Of a stretch of DNA of 64,000 nucleotides, positions 11,135 to 48,231 are shown piece after piece. Where the stretch lies: assembly GCA_000002445.1 (NCBI GenBank), contig CP000066.1, positions 224,001 to 288,000 of the forward strand. Reading direction: 5' to 3'. The number at the start of each line of letters is the position of its first letter. Position 1 is the stretch's first letter. The notes beneath the pieces were generated by a model. It saw only the letters and a program-made list of their open reading frames with translations, was not told the DNA's origin and ran no database searches. The position numbers and the translations under genes were made by a program. The DNA is from Trypanosoma brucei. Its lineage: Eukaryota.

Positions 11135-12397
11135 ATGCGTCGTACTTTTTCGCTTTTCACAACTCTCGTTAGACTAGGTCGCGGGCCGGAGAATGTGACG
11201 GAGGAGGCAAGCAACTCGCTCTTGGAAGCCCTGCAAAAGCACGGTTACTGCTACGTGCAGCATCCGTTTATACAGTGGGAGATATTAGATCAAGTTCACC
11301 GCGATAGTCGCATCTTTTTTGAGCGTTATTTGTTGGACCTCCCGGAGGAAAAGCAGAGAACGAGGAAAGAGAAGTTCTCCAAGAAACTAATAGCCCCCCG
11401 TAAGCCAATCAGGGCAATGACCCCATACGAATTAGAAAGCATTAAAACATCCTCGGGTTTCCGGGGGTATTACCGTTACATTGGCGCAGGCGGCGTGGAT
11501 GATGCGATCGAGTGCTTTTCCGTTGGCCGCGAGGTGCAGAGCCCCGTGGAATTACGGGAACCGTACTACAGATTGAGCGGTTGGCAACGCGATGAGTATT
11601 TGCCACTGATTAGCCGGAGAAATGCGTGGGATTCACTTCTAACTCACCCTAAGGATGGTAGTGGAGACCCCAATGGTGTGCACGCCTTCATGGCAGATTA
11701 TCGTGAGATGATACTGGCGTATTATGACCTTTGCAGCGAGGTCGCCCTCGATGTGCTGCGGCATATAAGTTGTGGTTTGGGCGTCAGACCCAGCATTCCA
11801 CAGGGTGGTCCTGATCCTGATAGCGGATACGATCTCGAATACTTCACACAGTTCCACAACAAACTTGACTTCGACTTACAAGCAAAGTATTATCCGAGGT
11901 TCGGACAAGGGGCTCGGACACGTGGTGGTGTAGAGGTTAAGGGAGTGCAGAGCGCCTCGAACCCCAAGGGTGTAAAAGTTCTACGTCGCAAGACAGCTCG
12001 AGGACAACCGTTGGTTAATGAAGATGAAGAAAACGCCGTGTTGCGGCTGGATTCGCACAAGGACCTCAGTACTGTCACACTCCTCGCACAGGACGCTCTC
12101 GGTGGATTGGAGGTTTGGGACAATGAGTCGGAACAGTTCAATCCGGTCCCTGTGCTGAATGATGCATTGCTTGTAAACGCGGGGTTGTTCCTTGAGAAGT
12201 GGACTGGCGGGTTGTTAGAGGCGACACCGCATCGAGTGCGGAACGTGAGAGGCGGAAGTAGTCGATGTAGTGTTGTCTTCTTCTGCTTACCTAACCATGA
12301 CGCCCGGATAGAGCCCCTACTGCAGCGAGATGAAAATCCTTCTCTTGACGCGGAAGAAGGTTTCTACGCGGGTGATCTAATGCCAGCAGCACCTTAA
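11135..12397 (+). CDS. 2-oxoglutarate/Fe(II)-dependent dioxygenase (isopenicillin-N-synthase-like fold)
   Basis: The track ORF 10964-12397 starts at GTG. The first ATG is at 11135 (MRRTFSLF...). It has an HxD...H iron-binding triad (SHKDLSTVTLL ... EATPHRV) and a C-terminal RxS-type 2OG-binding region (RCSVVFF), typical of 2OG-Fe(II) oxygenases. Confidence 0.75.
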   Translation: MRRTFSLFTTLVRLGRGPENVTEEASNSLLEALQKHGYCYVQHPFIQWEILDQVHRDSRIFFERYLLDLPEEKQRTRKEKFSKKLIAPRKPIRAMTPYELESIKTSSGFRGYYRYIGAGGVDDAIECFSVGREVQSPVELREPYYRLSGWQRDEYLPLISRRNAWDSLLTHPKDGSGDPNGVHAFMADYREMILAYYDLCSEVALDVLRHISCGLGVRPSIPQGGPDPDSGYDLEYFTQFHNKLDFDLQAKYYPRFGQGARTRGGVEVKGVQSASNPKGVKVLRRKTARGQPLVNEDEENAVLRLDSHKDLSTVTLLAQDALGGLEVWDNESEQFNPVPVLNDALLVNAGLFLEKWTGGLLEATPHRVRNVRGGSSRCSVVFFCLPNHDARIEPLLQRDENPSLDAEEGFYAGDLMPAAP

Positions 12398-13490
12398 GTA
12401 GAGGTATTGGAAGAAGGATTCCCCACTCACTTGCACATGTGAGCGCAACCTCGGGAATGAGTAGACACAACCAATCACATGCATAGATAAACAGTCGCAT
12501 GTACGTTGTGTACGTATGGCCGATTTGCCACCACACAGTTTTGACAACGGGAGTATTAACCGTGTGCCGCAGAAGGAGCGATAAAAACACACGATTCAAG
12601 AAACGAGTGGCGGAGTGATACGAAGTCACATGTGGTCCCTCGTCTTGTAGAAGGCACACAAACAAAACGGAAGAGAGAAAAAGAAAAAGGGATAGAGGCC
12701 TCTCAGCAGGTGCAGCGTTTAGATTCCAAAGTAGAAGCCAAGTAAATAAAAATAACCGAAGTAAAAAAGAGAGAAGGTAAATAAACGGAGGAGGCATAGC
12801 GGCTTCCTCGAAGTAGGTGACGTTTACACATAAATGCATATATACGTATATTGCTTCACTCACATACGTGCACATACATATGGATATATAAGCGCACACG
12901 CGTGGACATCTATTTCCTCTCGTTTCTTCTGACCACGCCCACTTCACCTTCACGCGGTTGATGCCAAACGGTGTGCAGATGACATAGACATTGGTGGACG
13001 CTGCTACCTCGTTTCTTCACTGCGAAGAGATGAGTGAAGGATGCAAAGAGGGAGTTCTATAACTCATTTAGCGGGATAATTTTGCATTATGTTTCCAACA
13101 TTCACACACACACACGCGCACGCAAACACATTTTCTTGTTTTCTCCCGTTACACTCATATATTCATTTATATCTTTATTGATATTACCGTCCACTCTTTA
13201 CAACTTTATTTCCTCCCCCTCCCCCTTCTGCGTGTTAATGTTTGTTTGACGTTGTCATACGACTTGACCCGCGTGTGACGAGTTGTTATTATTGATATTG
13301 TTATCAGTAAATGGTGGAGGTGGGGAACACTGCATGCGGGCATAATAAAGGGCGAGTGCGGCGGATTTTTTGTTTCCTTCCTTTTCACAGTTATAGAGTT
13401 TTCCTTATCCCCCTTTATTTCATCAACATCATCACCACACTTTTGGGCAGTGTAACATTCGGTGAGTAGCGGCCGTACGCGTGCCAACGT

Positions 13491-29217: not shown

Positions 29218-30291
29218 ATGCCGGCAAAAAAGAAAGGAGGGCGTGGAAAGACGCTTAATATTGTGGACTTCAATGTTGACTACATCCCGGAGGACAATTT
29301 AGACTGGGCAGTTGTGGTGCCTCAGGAAAAAACGCAGGAGCAGGTGTTGGAAGAGAAACTTGCCAAGAGGGATTACAGTCGTACAGCCAACAATGTTCTA
29401 GTTGAAAGCGGTGGTTTCCGCGAGGCCCCATCGGAGCAAGTCACACGGCGAAGGGGAATAGAAGACCTGGAGCCACCATATGTAGCGCATTTTGGAAACC
29501 TCCGCAACGGAACAACCGAGGAGGAGTTTCTGCGTAACTTTCACGAAGATGTTGTTGTGACATCACGGCTTATTAATCAGGATGGTAAAAGTTTCGCATT
29601 TGTAGAGTTTAAAACGCCTCAGGCCCTTCTTATTGCCCTCGCGATGGACCAATCACTTGTTAAAGGGCGTAAGTTATACGTAGATTTAGCCACGCCCAAG
29701 CAGGTGGAACGGTTACGCGGCCATAGTGGTGGACTTTCTCGCCAAAATGCGGGACAACCCCAACAAAACCCTGCACTTCAGAACGTTAACTTAACTCGTG
29801 ATGCGTTTGGATCTACGCAACCGAATGAGAGGGAAAAGGATTTGGGCAGCCGTTCCGGGTTTGGAAGCCGAAACGACTTGCATGTACTATCCGACCTCTC
29901 CCGTGATACGCTAGGAACTGCTACACGACCAAATGAAGGTCTGCTCAGTCCTGTTGGTCCACCGGATTTTTCCAGTTGGCGCACGGAGGCCCCAACGGCC
30001 CAACCGGAGTTTCAACCGACGCTGCGGGAAAACCGCCGAAGTGAAACCGATTTGGACCGTCGCCGTGGACGTGGTGGTGGTGGTGGTGGTGGAGTTAAGG
30101 GACAAAGTTTTGGAAGTCTTGCGAATTGGCGCGATGAACCGATGGTGCAGGCACCTCCAATGGTGACAGCAGCTGCTGGTGAGGGAAATGCGCCACCTGA
30201 AGAAGGCGGTGCGGGTCGTAGGAATCGCGGGCCCCCGAGGTCTTCCGCAGCACCGGCGGAACCCTGCAAGTGGGAGGAACTGCGGAGATGA
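29218..30291 (+). CDS. RRM-domain RNA-binding protein with Gly/Arg-rich C-terminal region
   Basis: Single RRM. It has an RNP2-like YVAHFGNL and an RNP1-like KSFAFVEFKTPQALLIALAMDQSLVKGRKLYV. The C-terminal region holds RRGRGGGGGGGVKG (encoded by (GGT)7 at 30058-30084) and RGG-like motifs. Confidence 0.65.
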   Translation: MPAKKKGGRGKTLNIVDFNVDYIPEDNLDWAVVVPQEKTQEQVLEEKLAKRDYSRTANNVLVESGGFREAPSEQVTRRRGIEDLEPPYVAHFGNLRNGTTEEEFLRNFHEDVVVTSRLINQDGKSFAFVEFKTPQALLIALAMDQSLVKGRKLYVDLATPKQVERLRGHSGGLSRQNAGQPQQNPALQNVNLTRDAFGSTQPNEREKDLGSRSGFGSRNDLHVLSDLSRDTLGTATRPNEGLLSPVGPPDFSSWRTEAPTAQPEFQPTLRENRRSETDLDRRRGRGGGGGGGVKGQSFGSLANWRDEPMVQAPPMVTAAAGEGNAPPEEGGAGRRNRGPPRSSAAPAEPCKWEELRR

Positions 30292-33200
30292 GGAGACTTT
30301 CCGTTGATGTTTTTCTTCTTTTTTTTCTTTTTTTAACGGAGGAAACACGACCGCATGGAGAGGGAAGGGGCGGGTTTTTCACCCAAAAGTGGATGATGGG
30401 GTGCCAAAAGATGTTTAATGCTGAGGGATTATAAATGGAAGCAAACACACAACCTTCGACAAACCGGAGGTCACCTTCAAGAGTGGCTTGAGGAGGGGTG
30501 GGCGATGGAAAAGCAGGATAAAAAAAAAGTTATGAAAGAGAGAAAAAGGAAAATTTTTTTTAAAAGTTTATTAATGGAGGAATGAAGAAAGAAAGAAAGA
30601 AAGGAAAAAAAAATCAAAGAATGAAGAATGCCGTTTAACTCGTTCGATACGATCGCTGCGCACCCTCCGTCATATAAATCATTTGTTCGCCCTCCCCATG
30701 CCGCAACGAAGGGAAGTTAAGGAAAGTGTAATACCTTCATTGAAAAGAAGAGGGTTCCCGAAGCAACTGTCCAGCGTGAAAGGATCATTTTAAATGTGAA
30801 ATATTTCCGCTAACAGTAAAGCGGAAGAATAATACGAAGCAACCATTCAAAAGAGGTTGCAAATGCACAGTGAACATCAAGAAATAAGTGAAAACAAAAA
30901 GGGGAGATAAAAGTAACGACCGTGGAAATATCACATCATAAACAGTGCGTTAGGGGGGGGGGGAAGGTGATTAGAGCGTTACTTGACGTGGGGAGGAGTA
31001 ATATGCGGACTAAAAATAATATAGGCATTTGTGTTCGGAAGTGATTTAAGGTATAATGAACGCGTTATGACTATCTAAGGAAGGATATGCTTGCATTGCA
31101 ACATGTTTTCACACAGAAGAAGCGATTATAAGAGGAGGGGGACCACTCTTCAAGGCGCATTAGTTTCTTTGTTTTCAACAGAGAACTTTGCAAAATCATT
31201 TTTTTTGTTAACCTCTTTTCATTCTTGTCACTCTAATTTTTCTTTCCCTCTTTCTAAGGCCACATAACACCCCATCTATTTAGCTAACAGTAAAGCAAAT
31301 AAAAAAATTATAGATATTGGAGGCCATGAGTTTCATATGCTGCAAGGAAATCGAGGCAGTAATGGCATTCCCAGGGAAAGCGAAGAAGGAAAATATTTCT
31401 CCCAGCTTGTGGACAGATCCCAGTCGCTACGATTTCCTGCCATGATGCGGTGTTGGCGCCACCACCGCTACCACAAATGAAACCACTGATGACTATAACG
31501 TTTCACTCTTGTCGTAGGAAATGTCTTGACGAAACTTATACTTCGTTTGATTCTGAATTATTTATTACTTCCTTCACACCCTATCATTCGTCGCCCCTTA
31601 TTTACTCTTTCCGTTGGAACAATGATGTGAATCTATCTGTGCAAATGACACCTCTAGTCTGAAACACAACATGACGCGAGCACAAATACAAGTTATCCCT
31701 GGCTGAGTAATCCAACTCCATTCTCTGTCCCTTCCCTAAGCAATTCATATCGAGTTCTCTACTGAGAGAATTCGCATATATATTTTTTTTTCTTTTTTTC
31801 TTTACTTGTGTATTTGGGGGGGGGGGGATTCGCGTTCGGTCCGCGCGACCATTTGGGATGATCTTAACACGGTATCGTATACTATTTTGCCATCTTTTTT
31901 TTTTTTCTGAGATGAGGCTGAAACACTTGCCCCATCACTTGGAAACTGAAATAGCAATGGCGAACGACATGCGACGTGAATGCCCACTGTATTGTAGCGG
32001 CAATGCCTGGAGTGAGGAATGTAAGCAGTCACACGACCCCTACATCCCTCTCTCAGTTACAATTTAAGGAGGTGGTGGTGGCCGGTATGTTATCACTGAG
32101 GGGATCACATTGGAAAGGAAATGCGCACATGCGTTCTTTCCTTTGTCACCTTCTCTTTTACCCTCCACTATCACCCTTTTCTTTTCCAACCCTTCCCTCA
32201 TCGTCATTCCAAGCTTTCAGTGGCACAGTCATCGCTCCGTCTTTTCGGCGGTGCGAGCGCGTCCTGCCCTGTCCTGCGCCATATAATAATCTCCATCCTC
32301 AGATTCGCTTAAAACTTTATTATCTAGAGTAATAATCTTCCCCTACCGACGAATGAAATTCCAAGTGCATCCTTGAAACTTGTGGAGAAAAATTTGGGGA
32401 AAAGGTGGCCCTTTTTAGGTGCCGTGGTGGAGTCTTTATTACCATCCACTGGTGCTGCGGCCAAATCACAGTTCCCAAAAACCTCCCTGCCGGTTCCGCC
32501 GGTGCGACTGCGCTGAAAGAAAGAAAAAAGGGATATTGATCGACCGCCGGGAAGCTCCACTACCGTGCCCGTGCGGGCGCTTAACTTTTGCTCAAACGTA
32601 TCTCCACTAGGTCCTTGAATTCATTCCCTGAGGTTCCTTCGCCTTACATGGGAATGCTTCATTACGTGTTAAGCGGGAACTACGGCGGAGAAAGGCCTCT
32701 CCACCTTACGAACCGGCTCTCTCTCCTTTCCAAAATTCGTGTGAAAATACAGCTTCTGTGAGGACTGCTGCTTATTTATTAATTTTTTTTTTTTTGGGGG
32801 GGGGGGGAGGAGGGTCGTAGGGCGCGAGGTTTTTAGCGACATTTTTGTCTTCCCTGCCCTCTGCGAGTAACGAACGCATTCAACATATTCAGTGTTTGAC
32901 CCTCCATTGACGGTGGTGTTTTTTTTTTTCCATGAAGGGCGACGGCTACACAGAGTAGCGCGGACGGAAGTGATGGCGAGAAAGGCAGAAGCTCCCTCCG
33001 CTTCCAAGTCGCGAACTCACTTGGCATACCCGAAATCCCAGCCTCTATTAGGGCGTTCACTCTTTTACATCGTTTTTTTCACCTCCTGGAGTCTCGCAGT
33101 CCCGTCTTCACGGGGCTGAGGCCCCACTACTTGGCTATTTTCCAGCCATGACCAATACAGCGGCGTCCCGCACCGTGTTGAAACTGAATCATCCGTCCAA

Positions 33201-35854
33201 ACGCATTCATTTTCAGCCAGATTCCCGTCGTCAATAGCAACCGCAGTTCCACGCAGCGGGAAGCACTTCCCGTCTTCCCGCACCTTGAGACTAGGGTGTC
33301 CCAACCGGAGTGCAGTCTCCGTGAAACTGGGTCATCACTGAAATGTCATTACCTGGAGCCTCGGCAAAGGAAAATGTGGTTGTCTAAACGACTTTCTTGT
33401 GTGTGGCGTGTGGTGGGGACTGTTGGGCAGCATGCCCGCCCGCGTGCACACCCCAAGTGAGTTCGACAATGCACTGGTGGGTGCCAAAGGGGGTCCGAGG
33501 TCTTGTTGCTTGCGATGCGTCGCCGGAAAAACACAAACCACGGCCGGCTTTTGGTGTGGTCGGGGGTAAGGTTACGTGTCCGCGCCGTCGGTTAGCACCT
33601 TTCACGTTGGCGAGGTCAGTTCGTAGCACTTTGGGTGGTGGCGGACTGTGTGTGGGGACGGGCGCTTTGCTCGTATTGGGGTGTGTCCCCCCTTGCGGTA
33701 TGCTCCCCAATTTAAGCAGACCTTCAAGCAATGCAATGCACTTCGCTCGCTATCTACGCGCTATCGCACCCATATGCCAGTGATCGATCGCTTTAAGGGC
33801 GACATCCGCCCCCCTTTCCGAGCGATGCCTAACCGTTAGCACGTCCCCTGTAATGATTACTACGGGTGAGTTGGGAACCTTACGACAAGTTTGTCTCGAG
33901 ACCTACTTGTTCCACAGCTACTTCGCGATCCGTCACCCTGGCGACGCGGGCGCAAGGGCAAAATGGCGGAGATGCTGAAAGCGTTCACGGGTATTATGAG
34001 GTTGGCGCTTGTGCTACAGCCCGGCCCTGACGCGGCTCGCTATCGCTGCTTGATCTCCCTTCCCTGACAACGCCCTGGGGCGTGCCGCCCTGCGGGGGGT
34101 TTCCGTCAATCCCGTGACTGGATGTGGGGTTTATGTGGTTTCGGAGGGGTCATGGCGCTCTTCCGGCGTGCCCTGGTTCCCCCTGGAGACCCTTCTGCGC
34201 CAACTGTCTTTGGGAACCTGTATTTGGCGTTCTATTCCTTCTTGTCCAAGTTGTGAATGTTGTCTGACCAGCGGCGTTGCGGTTTTCCGCCCGTTCCCCT
34301 CACAGGGCAGTGTGTGTTGGGGTCCCGCCTAGAGGTCAACGGTTTCATGCAGCACAGCGTGCAGGGTCAGTAGTGTTATGCCCGGCTCTCTCCCTTGCCG
34401 GTGCCTGCTACCTTTCGTTGCCTTACTGAATATCTGTGGGAGCCGTGAGGCAGCGGTTTCCCCTGCGTCGCCGCGAAGTGTAGACCCTCTGTTGTGTTTT
34501 ACATTATTGCTGCGCTCTGCGCCGTGGCCACTTCGTCGTTCGATTACTACCGTAAGCCGGTGTGTTCGTGGTGGGTGGTTTGTTGATCACTATACCGGTC
34601 TGCACATATTTGCTGCCAATGCTTCTGTATTGGAGCACCCTCTTTGATAGTTGGGAGTTTATGCACCTGTGCTATGCGTTGCGCAGGAAACTCTCGTCGC
34701 TCGTGTGCTTGCATGGGGAACGCAGCGGAGGGGAACGTGGTTGATGAATTTGCCTTAACTGGACGCTTAGGGATATGGTGTTGCGGGAGATTACTTGGTT
34801 CCGTCCACTGGCGTTGCGTAAAAACTTGGTATAACACTCGTCGCTTCAGGCGTTTGGCCGCTTCCTCGACTCGCCAGGTTTACACCTGACGCAACTTGGG
34901 CAGGAGGTCCTATTTCGGCAATTACGGCGGATTGATGCCGGTTGAGTGACGGCGCACCTTTTAAGCGTACTGAACGGTAATTCGGCGTCTCCTCGTGTAC
35001 CACTGTGTGTAGGAGACGTTGATGTGTTTGAACTTACGATATTAAATATGTTCAGGACCTGTTGGAACGTTAATAAAAAAATTATGCGCCAACTTCACTC
35101 GATTGTACCAAGCGTAGGGTTTCAGAAGCAAATGTATACGTATATATTGCCCGACGGTCGTATGCTGCCACATAACGGCTTGCCCCATATAACCATTTAG
35201 CGGGGGAAGTGGTCTATCGAAAATAAGCAAAGAAAAAAAAACGACACGGTACGAGCGTGATGGAAAGTAAGGGTGCCCTTTGGACTAGATTTTCACGCTA
35301 GATTCTCTATATTGACTGCTCATGCCATGGGTGGTTGTGGGATAACAAACAAACACAAAAAAATGTGACTCCGCTACTAGCTGTTGCGCTGCATTTCATA
35401 CCGCGAGGTATGGGGAATTATCTTCTTTTTCTGAAACCAAGGAAGTGCATGCATGTGTGAGTTGCCACCTCTGCTACATATATGTTTGGGTCCATAGCCA
35501 AAAGAGCGGAAAGGGTGGACTGAATTACGCACGCATAATGGACCAATACAAAATATTTATTCTTTTCCTACCATTGCTTATCACACCTTTTCTGTTAGTA
35601 AGGGTTATTATTGTTTGTGTTTTGATACAAATGGGGTGACATATAAACTCAACATGCTGGGGGTCACAGGCGTGCGAAGGCACTGAGCGAACGGTGAACA
35701 CCCAATCACTAAGTAACCAAATGTGTTATTTCCGCCTTTGTGTGTGCCGTTGTTGAGAGCACTATGTTGTGCTTTAAGGGTACCACTGTATTTTTTCTCC
35801 TTTTCGCGTATGCTCATTTACTGATTTTAATTAGTTGCAGTAAAAGAAATAAGT

Positions 35855-37055
35855 ATGAAGAACAGTGTTGCGCGCACTCAACCAGTGCGCAAGTATGAGA
35901 ACTTTACTTTGGAGAATAACTTACCGTTGGCACTGGGGGCCAATTTTCACGATGACCCAATTTGTCGCGATACAAACAGAACTAGTCACACGTTACTGTT
36001 GCCACGGAATGTAGACTATGCCCCCCATACAGAGTACGTATTTAATGGAGGTGGCTTCAATCGGGAAAATAAGATGAGAACTATTGATGAAGAGTTTGTC
36101 GATGAGGACGAGCCTGTGTTTGATGGTTGGATGACAGTAAACTTTGATAACCCCGATGACGCGAAGGATCACGTTGTGTCCTTTCTTGCGTACTTTGTGG
36201 AAGATATTCCAGAAGGGACTGAGACTAAGATCGTGAGGAAGGTTTGCATTCGTTATTACACACAGGATAATAGCATATCTGTGCAAGAGGCGAAGCAACA
36301 AAACAGTGGTATTGTGCAATCGACCATTCTGTCCCGAAGACAAGTACCGAGAAGAATGGACAACATCAATGATATTGTTATGCTGGAAGACTTCCAAATA
36401 GGTGGAACAATTACGTTATTCAGCAGAGAGTATCATATTCTTGACATGGATGCGAGAAGCCGCCTTTATTATAAGAAGGTACTTGGTCAAACAGTGCCAG
36501 AACCGTTGCCGTGGCCAATTGAGATTGACAAATTCACTACAATGCAAGCTCAACTATCCAAAAGCACTCATCGTCTTGCTACATCTGAAGATATGGACCA
36601 GAAGCGTGCGATTGAACAACAACTGACTGGTATTTACACGAAGCATCCCACGGAAGATATTCTTACAGCTCAAAACTTCCTTCGTCATAACATAAATGAG
36701 CACCTGACATTTTTAGCCCTGTGGGACGATCGCGAAAGTCTTAGTGGCGACCTTCGCTTTGTTGTGATTCGTCTGTATCTAGAGAATAACACTGTGGAGA
36801 TTATTGAGAGAAGACAAGAAAATTCCGGGCGAATGGGCAGTTCGGTGATTTTGGGCCGTCAGCGGGTTGCTCGCCCCGGTGCGGAAGGGAGCAAAATCCG
36901 TTTCCAGGAGCATACGTTTGGTGTTATATTAAAGCGGGACTTTCTTGTGGCAGAAGACATGAAAGTGGGAGAAACATATCATATTCACGGTCGACCCTAT
37001 TTTATATACGATGCCGACGAAGCAACACGCCGTTACATGAAGAACGAACTTGGTA
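35855..37055 (+). CDS. EFHC1/Rib72-like: 5' portion of a Rib72/EFHC1-like flagellar DM10-domain protein, interrupted by IS10. The track ORF 35855-37093 ends in 13 IS10-derived codons.
   Basis: It carries repeated DM10-type modules (e.g. ...VRKVCIRYYTQDNSISVQEAKQQNSGIVQSTILSRRQVP...FQIGGTITLFSREYHILDMDARSRLYY...). The reading frame continues without a stop across the IS10 insertion into 38394-39532 (insert + duplication = 1338 bp = 446 codons). The terminal ...TDESPNDFGKNH* of the track ORF is translated IS10 end sequence. Confidence 0.8.
37047..37055. repeat. Left copy of the 9-bp target-site duplication (AACTTGGTA) flanking IS10
   Basis: AACTTGGTA occurs immediately before the IS10 outside end (37056) and again at 38385-38393 immediately after the inside end. 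9 bp is the IS10/Tn10 duplication length. Confidence 0.9.
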
Positions 37056-37078
37056 CTGATGAATCCCCTAATGATTTT
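37056..37078 (+). repeat. IS10 outside-end terminal inverted repeat
   Basis: CTGATGAATCCCCTAATGATTTT matches 17/23 with the reverse complement of the inside end (CTGAGAGATCCCCTCATAATTTC), the known imperfect IS10 termini. Confidence 0.85.
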
Positions 37079-37101
37079 GGTAAAAATCATTAAGTTAAGG
37101 T

Positions 37102-37170
37102 GGATACACATCTTGTCATATGATCAAATGGTTTCGCGAAAAATCAATAATCAGACAACAAGATGTGCGA
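37102..37170 (-). ncRNA. RNA-OUT: Predicted IS10 antisense RNA-OUT region (pOUT transcript opposing the transposase 5' end)
   Basis: Placed from established IS10 organisation (RNA-OUT covers element bp ~47-115, overlapping the transposase start at bp 108 = 37163). A Dam site GATC at 37122-37125 lies in the pIN promoter region. Not independently verifiable from the sequence. Confidence 0.45.
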
Positions 37171-38371
37171 ACTCGATATTTTACACGACTCTCTTTACCA
37201 ATTCTGCCCCGAATTACACTTAAAACGACTCAACAGCTTAACGTTGGCTTGCCACGCATTACTTGACTGTAAAACTCTCACTCTTACCGAACTTGGCCGT
37301 AACCTGCCAACCAAAGCGAGAACAAAACATAACATCAAACGAATCGACCGATTGTTAGGTAATCGTCACCTCCACAAAGAGCGACTCGCTGTATACCGTT
37401 GGCATGCTAGCTTTATCTGTTCGGGCAATACGATGCCCATTGTACTTGTTGACTGGTCTGATATTCGTGAGCAAAAACGACTTATGGTATTGCGAGCTTC
37501 AGTCGCACTACACGGTCGTTCTGTTACTCTTTATGAGAAAGCGTTCCCGCTTTCAGAGCAATGTTCAAAGAAAGCTCATGACCAATTTCTAGCCGACCTT
37601 GCGAGCATTCTACCGAGTAACACCACACCGCTCATTGTCAGTGATGCTGGCTTTAAAGTGCCATGGTATAAATCCGTTGAGAAGCTGGGTTGGTACTGGT
37701 TAAGTCGAGTAAGAGGAAAAGTACAATATGCAGACCTAGGAGCGGAAAACTGGAAACCTATCAGCAACTTACATGATATGTCATCTAGTCACTCAAAGAC
37801 TTTAGGCTATAAGAGGCTGACTAAAAGCAATCCAATCTCATGCCAAATTCTATTGTATAAATCTCGCTCTAAAGGCCGAAAAAATCAGCGCTCGACACGG
37901 ACTCATTGTCACCACCCGTCACCTAAAATCTACTCAGCGTCGGCAAAGGAGCCATGGGTTCTAGCAACTAACTTACCTGTTGAAATTCGAACACCCAAAC
38001 AACTTGTTAATATCTATTCGAAGCGAATGCAGATTGAAGAAACCTTCCGAGACTTGAAAAGTCCTGCCTACGGACTAGGCCTACGCCATAGCCGAACGAG
38101 CAGCTCAGAGCGTTTTGATATCATGCTGCTAATCGCCCTGATGCTTCAACTAACATGTTGGCTTGCGGGCGTTCATGCTCAGAAACAAGGTTGGGACAAG
38201 CACTTCCAGGCTAACACAGTCAGAAATCGAAACGTACTCTCAACAGTTCGCTTAGGCATGGAAGTTTTGCGGCATTCTGGCTACACAATAACAAGGGAAG
38301 ACTTACTCGTGGCTGCAACCCTACTAGCTCAAAATTTATTCACACATGGTTACGCTTTGGGGAAATTATGA
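37163..38371 (+). CDS. tnp: IS10 transposase (402 aa, intact)
   Basis: MCELDILHDSLYQFCPELHLKRLNSLTLACHALLDCKTLTLTELGRNLPTKARTKHNIKRIDRLLGNRHLHKERLAVYRWHASF... through ...EDLLVAATLLAQNLFTHGYALGKL is recognised as the Tn10/IS10 transposase (DDE, IS4 family). It has an ATG start, a TGA stop and no frameshifts. Confidence 0.97.
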   Translation: MCELDILHDSLYQFCPELHLKRLNSLTLACHALLDCKTLTLTELGRNLPTKARTKHNIKRIDRLLGNRHLHKERLAVYRWHASFICSGNTMPIVLVDWSDIREQKRLMVLRASVALHGRSVTLYEKAFPLSEQCSKKAHDQFLADLASILPSNTTPLIVSDAGFKVPWYKSVEKLGWYWLSRVRGKVQYADLGAENWKPISNLHDMSSSHSKTLGYKRLTKSNPISCQILLYKSRSKGRKNQRSTRTHCHHPSPKIYSASAKEPWVLATNLPVEIRTPKQLVNIYSKRMQIEETFRDLKSPAYGLGLRHSRTSSSERFDIMLLIALMLQLTCWLAGVHAQKQGWDKHFQANTVRNRNVLSTVRLGMEVLRHSGYTITREDLLVAATLLAQNLFTHGYALGKL

Positions 38372-38384
38372 GGGGATCTCTCAG
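38362..38384 (-). repeat. IS10 inside-end terminal inverted repeat (contains Dam site GATC at 38375-38378)
   Basis: GAAATTATGAGGGGATCTCTCAG. The reverse complement CTGAGAGATCCCCTCATAATTTC pairs with the outside end. Confidence 0.85.
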
Positions 38385-38393
38385 AACTTGGTA
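38385..38393. repeat. Right copy of the 9-bp target-site duplication (AACTTGGTA)
   Basis: Identical to 37047-37055. Confidence 0.9.
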
Positions 38394-44005: not shown

Positions 44006-44959
44006 CATGGTGGGACTTCCTCTTCGTGGGGAAATAACGGAGAATAGGGGAAGGAAGTTGGAGGTGGTACAAGTGCGCTGGTGCTACCGCGGGAAATGCG
44101 TCGGGCCCCACGTGACCGTCAGCCTTGTGAACCACACAGGCGGCGGCGAAGGTCAATGGATGTTTGGGGGTTTGAAAAAGGTGATCAAAGAAAAGGGTGC
44201 TTATTTACATTGAATGAGGTTCCGTATCGTAGTTGGTCGTGTGGAAGGCGGACGCAAATTTTCTTCCACACCCCACTTGCTTTTTTGCACGGGGATTTAA
44301 GTGCACATGGAGCGGACTGGCACTGTGTTTGATTTTCCGGAGTTATTCTGTAACCGGTGCCACTATTTGGAATATCGTAACACGGTAGGTGACATTCTTT
44401 TCATTGGCTTTCTTGTATAGTGTTCGGGCCAATAACTTTCTTTGCAGGAAATGTGAACCAAACATTGGCTTCCATTGGTGGCCCTTGTGATGGGAGTCTT
44501 TGGGAATGGTAATCTTACGCGAGCGTCCAGCCACTTGTTGTCCGCTAATATGGCACTAATATCGACTAACCGGATCCGAAGCAGCGGTGGGGCTTACTCC
44601 ATGTGTTCCTGGTGCAGTTTCTGTTGCGTAACGTTGCACTATTTTTTGAAGGGGGTCAAGTTGAGGGATGGCGGCAAAGGGATGTGATGAACCAAGAACA
44701 TTTGCTGCTTGCATTGTGTTGTTCCTAATCCGGCGTTGTAATTTCACGTTTATATTTTTTGCGGCGATGGAACTTTTTTTCTTGATGTCAGGCGTCATGA
44801 AAGACTGCTCTGTCGTCCATAGTCTGGTCTGGGAAGCAACTAAGCTGTTCCTGAGGAGCTTTCGTGTTCACTATTCGGGACAGCTGCACAACATTAGTTC
44901 TTGATCTTGTACATGCAACTTTCTTTTTATTTACAAAAAGCAGACGAAGCCAGAGGGAC

Positions 44960-46153
44960 ATGAGACGCGCTTGTGTACATTTTGCCCGAGCCATCAAGGC
45001 AACACAAAACCTTACTCATTTGGAGGTCTTCACACAGCTTCAACTAGGTATCCACCCGCCGTTGAGTACTCAGCGTCAATTCCTTCAACAACACTTTGAT
45101 GTGGAGATGGAGCGTCGAGGTATAACAGAGACAAAACTCTTAGCTATGGATGGGCACCTCTGTACTCAGCTACTCCGTCAGTTGTTGTTTGAGCGGTATC
45201 TATCAGTTCCGTTTCGTCTTTTCACCTTTGATTTGGAGTTTACGGGGCCGCCTGTGTTTGGACCTGATGGCCCTACCGAGGATATCATGGAGTTTGGGTT
45301 TTATTCTCCGGCTCATGACAAAGTGTTTTCGTGTCTCGTTCGGCCGAGCAATGGTCGCTGTGTTTCTCCCGAGGTAACAACTCTAACGCACATAACTCAG
45401 AAGATGCTAGAGGAAGACGGTCTTCCCTTTCGAGATGCTTGGGCAAAGGTGCTTGATTTTCTTAATACACCGGAACCCCAGGAGCTCCCCGGTGCTGAGA
45501 AGCGGCTGCTTGTGCTCAGTCACGGAGGAAAATTGGCTGACGTTTCCTTGATCAAGTGGACTCTGGAAGCGTCGGGTATGGAGCTCCCTTCAAACATTAT
45601 TTTTGGTGACACGTTTCATTTGATTCGCGACGCCCATCGTCGTCGGCCGGTGACATTGGATAAGCACCCACCCACTTGGGGCCTCAGTGACCTTGTGCAG
45701 TGGTTGCGGATACCCCCAACGCTTCCTGCCCACCGCGCAGGTAACGATGCGAAGATGACATGGGACGCCTTGTATCACACGCTGGAGCGCTATGGTGACG
45801 AGGATTTGACACCGCGTGAACAACTTGTCTCACGGTTCTTTGATGTGGAAGCCAAACAAGTGATGAGTCAAGCCGGAATACGCAGTCATGCGCAGCCTGA
45901 TGGGACGTTGGAAAATGATACCAGTTACATGGAAGCTTCTGTTAGCGACTCCCTCGACCTTGACTTTGATGAGATATTTACCCCTGACGGAAAGCAGCGA
46001 CCTGAAGTGTCAGAAGACCGTACGGACGATGTTCCTGACGGTTCGAAAGGGGAGAGTCACAGTGGTGCATCCCGCGGAAAGGTGCGAAGTGGAAAACGTA
46101 ACGGTAGGAGCAGTTCCAGCGGCGGGGATCGTGGAGAGGAGTTCATCATTTAG
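44960..46153 (+). CDS. DEDDh-type 3'-5' exonuclease (DnaQ/RNase T-like) domain protein
   Basis: Exo motif I FTFDLEFTGP (D-x-E), motif II LVLSHGGKLADVSL, motif III HRAGNDAKMTWDALYH (H-x4-D). Acidic/Ser-rich C-terminal tail. Start set at the ATG (MRRACVHF...) after the CT-rich tract and AG inside the GTG-initiated track ORF. Confidence 0.7.
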   Translation: MRRACVHFARAIKATQNLTHLEVFTQLQLGIHPPLSTQRQFLQQHFDVEMERRGITETKLLAMDGHLCTQLLRQLLFERYLSVPFRLFTFDLEFTGPPVFGPDGPTEDIMEFGFYSPAHDKVFSCLVRPSNGRCVSPEVTTLTHITQKMLEEDGLPFRDAWAKVLDFLNTPEPQELPGAEKRLLVLSHGGKLADVSLIKWTLEASGMELPSNIIFGDTFHLIRDAHRRRPVTLDKHPPTWGLSDLVQWLRIPPTLPAHRAGNDAKMTWDALYHTLERYGDEDLTPREQLVSRFFDVEAKQVMSQAGIRSHAQPDGTLENDTSYMEASVSDSLDLDFDEIFTPDGKQRPEVSEDRTDDVPDGSKGESHSGASRGKVRSGKRNGRSSSSGGDRGEEFII

Positions 46154-46440: not shown

Positions 46441-46797
46441 GACATTAGTCGGTGCGAAAAACAACGACACACACATATTCGCATAAGACAGTACAATTCA
46501 CTCCCAAGGTCTGGCTTTTTGTGCTCTTTTTTTCACCAATGTCACCGAACCTTCTGTGCACCGTTTTTTTTTCTGTGATGCAATTAATTTTGTACTTAGA
46601 TAGTAGGGAGTTGCAAAATACAATTCTTGCTGTCAACTCGTTTTGTGGTTTCGTTCCAGACGTACGTATTACAATCCGTTGCTCATATTGGCGTGAGTCA
46701 GGCATAACGCCCCCCCCCCAAAAAAAAAAGAAGACGATATATTTGTTAGCTTTGCGTATAAGGTTAGCATCGGCTCCACCACGTCGAAACAGTCGAA

Positions 46798-48231
46798 ATG
46801 TCTTTTAGAGAGCTTCGTTCCTTTGCAGAGACGATGCGGTTGTTGGGCTACCCCAACCTAATCAGTATGGAGTCATTCCGAAATCCCAATGTGGAGTTGG
46901 TGGCGGATTGTCTCTTTTGGCTCATTAAACGCTACGAGCCATCCGCGGAAATTGTGTACGAAATAGAACGTGAAGCCGATCGAGTGTTTTTCTTCAAACA
47001 AGTATGCGAGGTGGCTTTGGCCAAGGGGAGGGTGAAGTTGAACATAAAGAAATTATACCAATCTGACGGGAACGCTGTGCAGGAAATGCTTATCTTAGCG
47101 AATGTACTGAAGAAGGCTATGAATACGACCGGGCTGGAGGAAATTGATCATGCTACGTTGCAGCAGGTGATTGCGCAGAGGAATGTGCAGGATGCCAAAC
47201 GTGTGCAGCAACTTTGCAGTGATTTGACGAACGATGGAAGTTCGCTCTTTTTTCTCATCGAAGAGGAAACAGGTCAGAGGGGGGAACGACAACGCGTTCT
47301 ATCGCGAGCTACAGAGGTAGGTGAATTTGAGCGCCGGCTCCGTGAAGTACTGAAGGATGTGACCACACAAGTGGAGCAACTGCAGGCATCTATTGCGAAC
47401 CTCAGTGCAGACGAGACAACGCTCGAGCAGAAGATTGAGAGCAAAAAAACCCAGTTGGAGCGAACGCAGAAGCGCCTAAAGTCCCTGAACGCTGTTCGCC
47501 CCGCTTTCATGGAAGAGTATGAAAAACATGAGGGCGATATGCACTCGCAGTTTGTCATATACCTTGAGCAGTACCGTAACTTGGAGTACCTCGAACACGA
47601 ACTCGCGAAATTCAATGCTGCGGAGGATGCCTTACTGGAGGAACATGAAACAAAGCTGCGGGTGATGCGTGAACGGCTGCGCAGGGAGGAATTAAACGCC
47701 CTTCGAGGGGAAGCGGGCCGCAAACGTGGTAGTCGCTCTGAAAACGACGGGGCGCCAAAGATTGGTGGACAAGGTAATGGTCCTGAAGGTAATGGAAGTT
47801 CTGCTGGCCCCCGCGTTCCTAAAGCGAGTGGAAACATGCGCGATGCTGCTTTAGAAGGCAGCAGTGGAAGTGACTCGAGCGGTGATTCGCAAGAAGAGGA
47901 ACATATACGCCCACAAGGAGCTTTGGGCCGACCGCGTCCCACAGCAGGACCTTCCACCAACCCACCACCGCGTGCCGGCCCAGATGGCTACGATGACTCC
48001 AATGCGGGTGGGAGGTCGGTGCGGCCGGGATTATCAGTTCGAGGAAGTTCTCCACCAGACCGCAATATGCGTGGACCGCCACCTGGTGGTGCTGGTGGAG
48101 GCGGTATGAGTGATGTTGACAGTGACTCTTCTGATGATGACGATGATGATGATGACGACTCTGACATCGATACTTCAGAGATTAGCATCGGTAGTGACGA
48201 TTCAGGTTCGGAAAGCAGCAGCGACCTCTAG
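46798..48231 (+). CDS. CLUAP1/IFT38: Clusterin-associated protein 1 / intraflagellar transport protein IFT38 homolog
   Basis: The N-terminus MSFRELRSFAETMRLLGYPNLISMESFRNPNVELVADCLFWLIKRYEP...DRVFFFKQVCEVALAKGRVKLNIKKLYQSDGNAVQEMLILANVL matches the conserved CLUAP1/IFT38 head. Central coiled coil. C-terminal Gly/Ser/Asp-rich tail with an Asp run encoded by (GAT/GAC)n around 48121-48165. Confidence 0.85.
   Translation: MSFRELRSFAETMRLLGYPNLISMESFRNPNVELVADCLFWLIKRYEPSAEIVYEIEREADRVFFFKQVCEVALAKGRVKLNIKKLYQSDGNAVQEMLILANVLKKAMNTTGLEEIDHATLQQVIAQRNVQDAKRVQQLCSDLTNDGSSLFFLIEEETGQRGERQRVLSRATEVGEFERRLREVLKDVTTQVEQLQASIANLSADETTLEQKIESKKTQLERTQKRLKSLNAVRPAFMEEYEKHEGDMHSQFVIYLEQYRNLEYLEHELAKFNAAEDALLEEHETKLRVMRERLRREELNALRGEAGRKRGSRSENDGAPKIGGQGNGPEGNGSSAGPRVPKASGNMRDAALEGSSGSDSSGDSQEEEHIRPQGALGRPRPTAGPSTNPPPRAGPDGYDDSNAGGRSVRPGLSVRGSSPPDRNMRGPPPGGAGGGGMSDVDSDSSDDDDDDDDDSDIDTSEISIGSDDSGSESSSDL

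What the first reader, a model, noticed from the sequence alone, without database searches (positions are those of the whole stretch)
30292..35854. 5.5-kb ORF-free gap inside a dense same-strand gene array, with a compositionally distinct GC-rich core (~33.1-34.9 kb)
Genes in this window are otherwise separated by about 0.3-2 kb. Here 5.5 kb contains no ATG-initiated ORF above ~70 aa on the coding strand.

The gap is heterogeneous:
- a purine-rich stretch (30.3-31.3 kb);
- two T-run/G-run homopolymer junctions;
- an ~1.8-kb GC-rich segment (33.1-34.9 kb) whose base composition and lack of CT-tracts differ from surrounding intergenic DNA. It carries overlapping short ORFs on both strands with no protein similarity.

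Candidate explanations:
- a structured non-coding RNA gene;
- a degenerate retroposon or pseudogene remnant;
- an internal transcription termination/re-initiation zone of the polycistron.

No tRNA, snRNA, 5S or SL RNA signature was spotted by eye.
Basis: seen in the sequence. Interest (0 to 1): 0.5.

Follow-up and report, generated by a model that had tools for sequence, protein, structure and literature searches.

The report
Known internal transcription start region
The 5.5-kb gene-free stretch is the published boundary on Trypanosoma brucei chromosome 3 where one long multi-gene transcription unit ends and the next begins, so it is real but already known.

Summary
The window is T. brucei TREU927 chromosome 3, v4 positions 224,001-288,000. 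The gap lies between Tb927.3.1030 (RBP28-like RRM gene) and Tb927.3.1040 (Rib72/DM10 gene).

Kolev et al. 2010 (PMC2936937-series paper PMC2936537, Table S14) end one Pol II unit at Tb927.3.1030. They start an "Internal" unit, Tb927.3.1040 to Tb927.3.1470, at exactly this gap. Their mapping gives the RRM gene a 3'UTR of only about 0.8 kb and Rib72 a 20-nt 5'UTR. The long-UTR reading therefore fails.

All three G runs of 9 or more in the 64 kb lie in the gap, on the coding strand. G10 is the 10-mer most enriched at the 5' edge of T. brucei start regions (Wedel 2017).

The GC-rich core (33.1-34.9 kb) shows:
- no Rfam or Pfam match;
- no codon periodicity;
- no unusual RNA folding;
- no sequence constraint between strains.

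In Leishmania, T. cruzi and T. theileri the two flanking genes are 160-200 kb apart and convergent. The gap is therefore a rearrangement junction, probably an inversion.

Side findings: a candidate C/D snoRNA at 31,613-31,717, and the known IS10 cloning artefact at 37,056-38,384.

Verdict: real, explained, already known.

The parts
29218..30291 (+). Tb927.3.1030, an RBP28-like RRM protein. It is the last protein-coding gene of the upstream Pol II unit (Tb927.3.870 to Tb927.3.1030).
   Evidence: ORF. Orthologues are named RBP28 or RRM protein. The published splice site 253,112 equals window 29,112, giving a 106-nt 5'UTR. The unit end is listed in Kolev Table S14.
30292..31119 (+). 3'UTR of Tb927.3.1030. 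It is purine-rich and contains the first G run (G11, 30953-30963).
   Evidence: Kolev Table S13 places poly(A) sites at 255,067-255,119 (3'UTR 776-828 nt), which is window 31,067-31,119. Skews are and the G run.
31259..31636 (+). Published low-abundance spliced and polyadenylated 'novel transcript' Tb3.NT.16 (377 nt, 0.48 RNA per cell).
   Evidence: Kolev Table S7 gives Tb927_03_v4 255,259-255,636 on the + strand. It starts just after the polypyrimidine tract 31237-31255.
31613..31717 (+). Candidate box C/D snoRNA:
- terminal stem GTTGGA/TCCAAC;
- C box AUGAUGU (31624-31630);
- D' box CUGA (31659-31662);
- C'-like AUGACGC (31671-31677);
- D box CUGA (31703-31706).
   Evidence: This is the only block of the gap conserved with T. 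vivax. In T. vivax the terminal stem is GCCGG/CCGGC, a compensatory change. It is the only locus in the 64 kb with a stem of 6 bp or more under a simple C/D grammar. A sub-threshold Rfam hit to the C/D snoRNA ceN61 shares the guide AAGUUAUCCCUG upstream of the D box (E 1.6).
31783..31827 (+). T/C-rich tract followed by G12 (31816-31827). This is the second coding-strand G run.
   Evidence: It matches the 10-mers TTTGGGGGGG and GGGGGGGGGG of Wedel 2017 Dataset EV1. Its position is conserved in three other T. brucei-group assemblies.
32783..32807 (+). T13G12 homopolymer junction. This is the third coding-strand G run.
   Evidence: It matches TTTTTTTTGG, TTTTTTTGGG, TTTTGGGGGG, TTTGGGGGGG and G10 of Wedel Dataset EV1.
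33100..34900 (+). GC-rich, non-coding core without polypyrimidine tracts. Its 3' half is T>A skewed. By inference it belongs to the start region, as the initiation zone and/or the unspliced 5' leader of the downstream unit.
   Evidence: GC 0.566 and period-3 signal 2.7, against 9-26 for coding sequence. AT skew reaches -0.46. No Rfam or Pfam match. Folding z-scores are ordinary. There are 21-30 differences per kb between strains, as in intergenic DNA. There is no plasmid DNA match.
35791..35854 (+). Polypyrimidine tract (35791-35805), AG acceptor (35833-35834) and the 20-nt 5'UTR of Tb927.3.1040. This is the first trans-splice site of the 'Internal' unit.
   Evidence: Kolev Table S12 gives the splice site at 259,835/6 with a 20-nt 5'UTR, which is window 35,835. 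Sequence is and the tract.
35855..37055 (+). 5' part of the Rib72/DM10 gene (Tb927.3.1040). It is the first gene of the unit Tb927.3.1040 to Tb927.3.1470 and is cut by the IS10 artefact at 37056-38384.
   Evidence: The intact 779-808 aa orthologues have DM10 domains. Window 37060-38383 is absent from other T. brucei assemblies. Kolev Table S14 lists the unit and the Figure S2 legend describes the artefact.

Best explanation
The gap is a head-to-tail boundary between two same-strand RNA polymerase II polycistronic transcription units of T. brucei chromosome 3.

The upstream unit (Tb927.3.870 to Tb927.3.1030) runs out after three features: the 0.8-kb RBP28 3'UTR, a small spliced transcript (Tb3.NT.16) and a probable C/D snoRNA. 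The rest of the gap, about 31.8-35.8 kb, is a non-divergent ('internal') Pol II transcription start region. It launches the unit Tb927.3.1040 to Tb927.3.1470.

The start region carries the sequence signature known for such regions. Long G runs and T-run/G-run junctions lie on the coding strand at its 5' side. A stretch with G>=C and T>A follows.

Pol II probably initiates dispersedly within or after the G-run zone. It would then transcribe the GC-rich core, which has no polypyrimidine tract, as an unspliced leader. That leader would be cut off when the first splice acceptor (35,835) is used for Rib72.

Shown:
- the position of the unit boundary (literature);
- the UTR limits (literature);
- the G-run and 10-mer signature;
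- the lack of coding or structured-RNA signals in the core.

Inferred:
- where exactly initiation occurs;
- that the core is a leader or promoter;
- that the upstream unit truly terminates here;
- that the boundary arose when a block of about 43 genes was inverted at an ancestral convergent strand-switch region.
For: 1. Identity of the locus. The Tn10/IS10 transposase ORF at window 37163-38371 equals Tb927.3.1050 at Tb927_03_v4 261,163-262,371, an offset of 224,000. Two published splice sites then reproduce the window ATGs, with 5'UTRs of 106 nt and 20 nt.

2. Kolev 2010 Table S14 lists 'Tb927.3.870-Tb927.3.1030, +, Divergent' followed by 'Tb927.3.1040-Tb927.3.1470, +, Internal'. The paper states that 5'-triphosphate RNA reads were enriched at all histone-marked candidate promoters, including internal sites.

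3. UTR mapping gives poly(A) sites of Tb927.3.1030 at window 31,067-31,119 and the splice site of Tb927.3.1040 at 35,835. Only Tb3.NT.16 (31,259-31,636) is listed between them.

4. All three G runs of 9 or more in the 64 kb are in the gap, on the + strand. G10 is the top 10-mer enriched on the coding strand in the 5' fifth of 199 start regions (132 against 17), and TTTTGGGGGG-type junctions are listed too (Wedel 2017 Dataset EV1).

5. Scoring all 157 Wedel 10-mers, the best 2-kb window of the 64 kb is 31,001-33,000, with 19 hits on + and 2 on -. Other high windows are symmetric (16:14).

6. The G runs keep their positions in T. b. gambiense, a second T. brucei assembly and T. equiperdum, with length polymorphism.

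7. The core lacks splice-signal tracts. This fits Kolev's description of SL-less, polyadenylated leader RNAs upstream of the first gene of a unit.

8. Synteny. In L. donovani/infantum, T. cruzi and T. theileri the RBP28 and Rib72 genes lie on one contig, convergent and about 160-200 kb apart. In Leishmania, RBP28 is followed by a convergent strand switch. In Leishmania, T. cruzi and T. theileri a cyclin gene sits roughly 0.4-1.2 kb upstream of Rib72. Locus tags in three Leishmaniinae put the two genes 41-48 genes apart, about the size of the T. brucei 'Internal' unit (Tb927.3.1040-1470).
Against: - The published boundary is given at gene resolution only. I could not see the ChIP-seq or 5'-triphosphate tracks, so the exact start zone inside the gap is not known.
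- The first G run (30953) lies inside the RBP28 3'UTR, so not every G run can sit upstream of initiation.
- The keto (G+T) content of the core (0.59-0.60 at 34.0-34.75 kb) is high but not unique in the window.
- GC-richness itself is not a described property of start regions in the papers read.
- Termination of the upstream unit at this site is asserted by the unit table, not demonstrated. Read-through may also feed Rib72.
- The far end of the proposed inversion could not be inspected. The last protein search returned no T. brucei CorA.
Confidence: 0.85

Rival explanations
1. The GC-rich core is the decayed remnant of a mobile element (ingi/RIME/DIRE/SIDER-type retroposon or RHS) or of a gene, inserted or stranded at the rearrangement junction. 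It would have no role of its own. This concerns the origin of the DNA and is compatible with the start-region function.
For: - The equivalent breakpoints in other species are occupied by such elements.
- T. vivax has copies of one reverse-transcriptase-bearing element (83% identical). One lies downstream of RBP28 and one, inverted, upstream of Rib72.
- T. cruzi has an RHS gene 4.4 kb downstream of RBP28 and an endonuclease fragment near Rib72 in one strain.
- The core has coding-like GC content and evolves neutrally.
Against: - No Pfam domain in six frames at E<=1, including RVT, Exo_endo_phos and RHS models.
- No tblastx match to the T. vivax or T. cruzi elements.
- No period-3 signal.
- No internal or terminal repeats.
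- The longest open frame has no relative outside T. brucei among 1.84 billion proteins.
- Non-coding repeats (RIME, SIDER) could not be tested, for lack of a kinetoplastid repeat library.
Confidence: 0.2
2. The gap is simply one very long UTR, either the 3'UTR of the RRM gene or the 5'UTR of Rib72, inside a continuous polycistron.
For: Regulatory RNA-binding protein genes in T. brucei can have multi-kb 3'UTRs (own knowledge). The first 0.8 kb of the gap is indeed the RBP28 3'UTR.
Against: - Published poly(A) sites of Tb927.3.1030 lie 776-828 nt after the stop.
- The Rib72 5'UTR is 20 nt.
- A separate spliced transcript (Tb3.NT.16) sits between them.
- The unit table places a boundary here.
Confidence: 0.03
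3. The GC-rich core encodes an independent structured non-coding RNA or a long non-coding RNA with a function of its own.
For: The region is probably transcribed, because it lies upstream of the first splice site of a unit. It is free of splice signals. T. brucei does have functional lncRNAs (own knowledge).
Against: - No Rfam match at E<=1.
- Folding z-scores average -0.44 on + and +0.04 on -, like control intergenic regions, with no strong outlier.
- Divergence between strains equals that of other intergenic DNA.
- No similarity to T. vivax, T. cruzi, T. theileri or Leishmania at the corresponding places.
Confidence: 0.05

Closest known systems
Non-divergent ('internal', head-to-tail) RNA polymerase II transcription start regions of T. 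brucei (Siegel 2009; Kolev 2010; Wedel 2017 counts 57 of them)
   Same: - It lies between two same-strand units.
- It is listed as 'Internal' for this exact gene pair.
- It has coding-strand G runs and T/G junctions at the 5' side.
- It is a several-kb zone free of mRNA, ending at the first splice site of the downstream unit.
   Different: Nothing contradicts membership. The sustained 1.8-kb GC-rich block (0.57) without polypyrimidine tracts is not a feature described in the papers read. Whether it is typical of other such regions was not tested.
Synthetic and natural GT-rich promoters of T. brucei (Wedel 2017)
   Same: - Strand-asymmetric enrichment of the same 10-mers, 19 on the coding strand against 2 on the other in 31-33 kb.
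[quoted passage not shown]
   Different: Promoter activity of this particular DNA has not been assayed. The GT-rich motif hits are concentrated at 31.8-33.7 kb rather than throughout the core.
Degenerate retroposons (DIRE) and RHS genes at trypanosomatid synteny breakpoints
   Same: The gap sits at a synteny breakpoint. The same breakpoints carry retroelements in T. vivax and an RHS gene in T. cruzi.
   Different: No reverse transcriptase, endonuclease or RHS similarity is detectable in the T. brucei gap in any frame.
Solitary box C/D snoRNA genes of T. brucei (Michaeli 2012)
   Same: The 31,613-31,717 candidate has C, D', C'-like and D boxes and a terminal stem with a compensatory change in T. 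vivax. It lies in an intergenic or 3'UTR-like position, overlapping the 3' end of Tb3.NT.16, a transcript Kolev lists among those carrying both an SL and a poly(A) tail. Michaeli reports that other snoRNAs lie within such 'new transcripts'.
   Different: It matches no Rfam family above threshold. Expression and target were not verified. It may or may not be an already catalogued snoRNA, for example of the TB3Cs1 group.

Membership tests
T. brucei head-to-tail (non-divergent) Pol II transcription start region | Located between two polycistronic units transcribed from the same strand | tested here: met
   All large ORFs on both sides are on the + strand. Kolev 2010 Table S14 lists the units Tb927.3.870-1030 (+) and Tb927.3.1040-1470 (+, 'Internal').
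T. brucei head-to-tail (non-divergent) Pol II transcription start region | Enrichment of primary (5'-triphosphate) transcripts | not testable with these tools
   No read data are available here. The paper says Table S14 sites showed such enrichment, so this rests on the publication at gene resolution.
T. brucei head-to-tail (non-divergent) Pol II transcription start region | Chromatin marks H2A.Z, H2B.V, H4K10ac and BDF3 over several kb | not testable with these tools
T. brucei head-to-tail (non-divergent) Pol II transcription start region | Coding-strand G runs and GT-rich 10-mers concentrated at the 5' part | tested here: met
   Three of three G runs of 9 or more in the window lie here on the + strand. 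For the Wedel 10-mers the top 2-kb window is 31,001-33,000, at 19:2 (+:-).
T. brucei head-to-tail (non-divergent) Pol II transcription start region | Bounded by the last poly(A) site of the upstream unit and the first splice-leader acceptor of the downstream unit | tested here: met
   Poly(A) sites map to window 31,067-31,119 and the Tb3.NT.16 end to 31,636. The first splice site of Tb927.3.1040 is at 35,835.
T. brucei head-to-tail (non-divergent) Pol II transcription start region | Termination marks (H3.V, H4.V, base J) at the end of the upstream unit | not testable with these tools
   Only general statements are available. All 10 head-to-tail regions of chromosome 10 carry base J, and head-to-tail sites are defined.
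ingi/RIME/DIRE/SIDER retroposons or RHS (pseudo)genes | Remnants of reverse transcriptase, endonuclease or RHS coding sequence | tested here: not met
   Six-frame Pfam scan of 31,700-35,854 found no family at E<=1. tblastx against T. vivax and T. cruzi loci holding RVT_1, Exo_endo_phos and RHS genes found nothing in the core.
ingi/RIME/DIRE/SIDER retroposons or RHS (pseudo)genes | Nucleotide similarity to the shared 5' signature or to other genomic copies; poly(A) tail and target-site duplication | not tested
   No kinetoplastid genome or repeat library can be searched at the DNA level with these tools. No flanking direct repeats were found.
Curated structured RNA families (Rfam 15), tRNA | Covariance-model or ARAGORN match | tested here: not met
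   No match at E<=1 in 29,500-36,500 and no tRNA. The only gathering-level hit in the window is RNA-OUT of IS10.
Box C/D snoRNA (candidate at 31,613-31,717 only) | C box (RUGAUGA) near the 5' end and D box (CUGA) near the 3' end, joined by a terminal stem of 4-6 bp | tested here: met
   AUGAUGU and CUGA are flanked by GTTGGA/TCCAAC. T. vivax has GCCGG/CCGGC at the same places.
Box C/D snoRNA (candidate at 31,613-31,717 only) | Guide of 10 nt or more, antisense to rRNA, immediately upstream of D or D' | tested here: inconclusive
   The guide AAGUUAUCCCUG is identical to that of Rfam ceN61 (sub-threshold hit, E 1.6). It is antisense to the conserved LSU rRNA CAGGGAUAACU, which I recall from memory.
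Box C/D snoRNA (candidate at 31,613-31,717 only) | Accumulates as a small nucleolar RNA of about 100 nt | not testable with these tools
   There is no small-RNA data. It overlaps the 3' end of transcript Tb3.NT.16.

The most novel reading that the evidence does not exclude
The internal start region was born at an inversion junction. A block of about 43 genes (Rib72 to CorA), ancestrally transcribed towards RBP28, was flipped at a convergent strand-switch region. That cut it off from its old promoter. Lineage-specific DNA (G runs plus the GC-rich core, with no counterpart in T. vivax, T. cruzi, T. theileri or Leishmania) then took over as a new Pol II promoter. This would be a dated, natural example of how trypanosome promoters arise de novo and of what minimal sequence suffices.
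Probability: 0.35. Interest if true: 0.5.

Novelty: already known. Interest (0 to 1): 0.2.

Why it matters
As it stands, the finding is a correct re-discovery from raw sequence of a catalogued feature, the only 'internal' Pol II start site listed for T. brucei chromosome 3. Its practical value is as a positive control: a long ORF-free gap with coding-strand G runs inside a same-strand array predicts a unit boundary.

The comparative result adds a modest new angle. This boundary coincides with a rearrangement junction, and its DNA is specific to the T. brucei lineage. That makes it a convenient natural case for asking how dispersed trypanosome promoters originate, and whether G runs or the GC-rich block are the active part.

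Tried and rejected
- **Rfam.** Search at E<=1 over 29.5-36.5 kb and a tRNA scan found nothing.
- **Pfam.** Six-frame scan of 31.7-35.85 kb found nothing.
- **Cyclin pseudogene.** A cyclin gene sits just upstream of Rib72 in T. cruzi, T. theileri and Leishmania. tblastn of three cyclins against the window gave only noise.
- **CorA pseudogene.** CorA follows RBP28 in Leishmania, and a 211-aa CorA fragment is annotated inside the gap in T. equiperdum. That fragment is a 1.07-kb contig flanked by N10 on both sides, so it is a scaffolding artefact. It is absent from the window and from two other assemblies.
- **Retroelement remnants.** tblastx against T. vivax and T. cruzi loci found nothing.
- **Coding periodicity, RNA-folding z-scores and strain divergence of the core.** All were ordinary.
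- **Bacterial or plasmid origin of the core** (prompted by the nearby IS10). No match was found.
- **HMMER search of the longest core frame** against 1.84 billion proteins. It matched only its own T. b. gambiense copy.
- **T. congolense.** The only contig holds 1 kb downstream of RBP28 and is not alignable, so it is uninformative.
- **Locating T. brucei CorA** to check the far end of the inversion. The search returned no T. brucei protein.
- **Site-specific chromatin, origin or base J data.** Siegel 2009 and Cordon-Obras 2022 are not held. Wedel, Tiengwe and Cliffe gave no coordinates for this site.
- **Matching the snoRNA candidate to published lists.** No sequences are held.

Full report
**Observation**

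The interval 30292-35854 is exactly the space between two + strand ORFs, an RRM protein (29218-30291) and a DM10/Rib72-like protein (35855-37093). At 5563 nt it is more than twice the next largest inter-ORF distance in the window, 2587 nt.

- 30.3-31.2 kb is purine-rich.
- 33.1-34.9 kb has a GC content of 0.566 and contains the most GC-rich 500-nt window of the 64 kb.
- Polypyrimidine tracts of 12 nt or more are absent from 32931 to 35421, apart from one 12-mer.

Two details need correction. First, there are three long G runs rather than two: G11 at 30953, G12 at 31816 and T13G12 at 32783-32807. Second, ATG ORFs of up to 109 aa do occur on the + strand. Their lengths are what shuffled sequence of the same composition gives.

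**Identity of the locus**

The RRM protein is found with an identical sequence on three long T. brucei-group contigs: T. b. gambiense DAL972 chromosome 3, a second T. brucei assembly, and T. equiperdum. The gap is 98-99.5% identical in all three.

An Rfam gathering-level hit to RNA-OUT at 37101-37170 revealed an IS10 copy. It spans 37056-38384 (1329 bp) and has a 9-bp target duplication, AACTTGGTA. It splits the Rib72 gene and is absent from the other assemblies.

Kolev et al. 2010 (PMC2936537) describe exactly this. Tn10 transposase Tb927.3.1050 interrupts Tb927.3.1040/1060 as a BAC-construction artefact. Their coordinates for Tb927.3.1050 (261,163-262,371) fix the window as Tb927_03_v4 224,001-288,000. 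With that offset, their splice sites reproduce the window's start codons:
- Tb927.3.1030: 253,112, 5'UTR 106-107 nt.
- Tb927.3.1040: 259,835/6, 5'UTR 20 nt.

**What the gap is**

Kolev's Table S14 of putative Pol II transcription units lists 'Tb927.3.870 to Tb927.3.1030, +, Divergent'. It is followed directly by 'Tb927.3.1040 to Tb927.3.1470, +, Internal'. The text says that 5'-triphosphate reads were enriched at all candidate promoters defined by histone marks, including internal sites. The gap is therefore a published head-to-tail boundary, the only 'Internal' start listed on chromosome 3.

The same paper's tables bound the transcripts:
- The RRM gene's poly(A) sites are 776-828 nt after its stop (window 31,067-31,119).
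- A 377-nt low-abundance spliced transcript, Tb3.NT.16, occupies 31,259-31,636.
- The next splice acceptor is that of Rib72, at 35,835.

**Sequence signature**

Wedel et al. 2017 (PMC5579346) searched 199 start regions for 10-mers at least six-fold enriched on the coding strand. The top one is GGGGGGGGGG, with 132 coding against 17 non-coding occurrences in the 5' fifth. T-run/G-run junction 10-mers are also listed.

In this window all three G runs of 9 or more fall in the gap, on the coding strand. When all 157 listed 10-mers are scored, the best 2-kb window of the 64 kb is 31,001-33,000, with 19 hits on + and 2 on -. Other high-scoring windows are symmetric. The G runs keep their positions, with length polymorphism, in the other T. 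brucei-group assemblies.

**The GC-rich core**

Every test for an independent gene was negative:
- no Rfam match;
- no Pfam match in six frames;
- no period-3 signal, 2.7 against 9-26 for real coding sequence and within the shuffle range;
- folding z-scores like control intergenic DNA;
- 21-30 differences per kb between strains, as in other intergenic DNA and unlike coding sequence at 2-10 per kb;
- no relative of its longest frame outside T. brucei among 1.84 billion proteins;
- no plasmid DNA match.

The 3' half of the core is T>A skewed with G>=C. [quoted passage not shown]

Kolev et al. describe SL-less, polyadenylated leader RNAs upstream of the first gene of a unit. On that basis my inference is that the core is part of the initiation zone and/or the unspliced leader that is discarded when Rib72 is trans-spliced. 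Its lack of polypyrimidine tracts fits that reading.

A decayed non-coding repeat as the origin of this DNA cannot be excluded, because no kinetoplastid repeat library is searchable here.

**Evolutionary context**

Gene order upstream of RBP28 (frataxin, FAZ1-like, a 500-860 aa protein) and downstream of Rib72 (RF-1, DUF1295) is conserved across trypanosomatids. The junction is not.

- In L. donovani/infantum, T. cruzi and T. theileri the two genes are on the same contig, convergent, and about 160, 183 and 200 kb apart.
- In Leishmania, RBP28 is followed by a convergent strand switch (CorA, DnaJ and a giant gene on the other strand).
- In Leishmania, T. cruzi and T. theileri a cyclin gene sits roughly 0.4-1.2 kb upstream of Rib72.
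- Locus tags in three Leishmaniinae put the two genes 41-48 genes apart. This is about the span of Tb927.3.1040-1470.

The simplest reading is an inversion of the whole Rib72-to-CorA block in the T. brucei lineage. One breakpoint would be in the old convergent region and the other between cyclin and Rib72. No cyclin or CorA remnant is left in the gap.

In T. vivax both breakpoints carry copies of one retroelement. In T. cruzi an RHS gene follows RBP28. I could not inspect the far end of the inversion, so this part is inference.

**A small RNA gene after all, but elsewhere**

The only block of the gap conserved with T. vivax is 31,620-31,690. It has the grammar of a box C/D snoRNA:
- a terminal stem GTTGGA/TCCAAC, which is GCCGG/CCGGC in T. 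vivax, a compensatory change;
- C box AUGAUGU;
- D' box CUGA;
- a C'-like box AUGACGC;
- D box CUGA.

It is the only locus in the 64 kb with a stem of 6 bp or more under a simple C/D grammar. A sub-threshold Rfam hit to the C. elegans C/D snoRNA ceN61 shares the guide AAGUUAUCCCUG next to the D box. From memory, that guide is antisense to the conserved LSU rRNA sequence CAGGGAUAACU.

It may correspond to a catalogued T. brucei snoRNA. For example, TB3Cs1C-1 is reported to guide a Gm in LSU-beta. I could not check this.

**Verdict**

However, the feature is already in the literature for this exact locus, and the adjacent IS10 is a known artefact. The rearrangement-junction origin and the lineage-specific GC-rich block are the only parts that go beyond what I found published. 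Both remain inferences.

Noticed in passing
window 37056-38384 (RNA-OUT at 37101-37170, minus strand; transposase ORF 37163-38371): A complete bacterial IS10 (1329 bp, 99.5-99.9% identical to enterobacterial copies) sits inside the Rib72/DM10 gene. It has a 9-bp target duplication, AACTTGGTA, at 37047-37055 and 38385-38393. It is absent from three other T. brucei-group assemblies. It is a known BAC-cloning artefact, annotated as Tb927.3.1050 (Kolev 2010, Figure S2 legend).
   Followed up: yes
window 31613-31717 (+); T. vivax L007 about 11970-12050: Candidate box C/D snoRNA with a terminal stem that covaries between T. brucei and T. vivax. It overlaps the 3' end of the published transcript Tb3.NT.16. 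It has no Rfam family above threshold. The guide next to the D box is identical to that of C. elegans ceN61. It is possibly an already catalogued T. brucei snoRNA.
   Followed up: partly
L003 (T. equiperdum CZPT02001330.1) 11714-12804, corresponding to window 30931-30953: A 1.07-kb piece carrying the C-terminal half of a CorA/MGT2 magnesium-transporter gene is inserted at the first G run. It is flanked by N10 on both sides, so it is a scaffolding artefact. Curiously, its Leishmania relative (46-52% identical in translation) is the gene that lies immediately downstream of RBP28 there, so the misplacement may not be random.
   Followed up: partly
window 46710-46729: C10A10, which is a T10G10 junction on the minus strand, lies between the + strand ORFs 44864-46153 and 46798-48231. 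It has the same form as the start-region-type junction at 32783-32807 but in antisense orientation. It is the only other G/C run of 9 or more in the window.
   Followed up: no
L007 12833-15464 (+) and L016 3833-6469 (inverted), T. vivax: Copies of one reverse-transcriptase-bearing element (83% identical over 2.6 kb) lie downstream of RBP28 and upstream of Rib72, on two different contigs. Both breakpoint sides are colonised by the same retroelement family in T. vivax.
   Followed up: partly
window 31259-31636 (+): The published novel transcript Tb3.NT.16 (377 nt) contains only chance-length ORFs. Among the supplementary files held as text, it was found only in Table S7 (the list of all novel transcripts), not in the conserved, peptide-supported or non-coding lists. 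It may be the processed host or precursor of the snoRNA candidate.
   Followed up: partly
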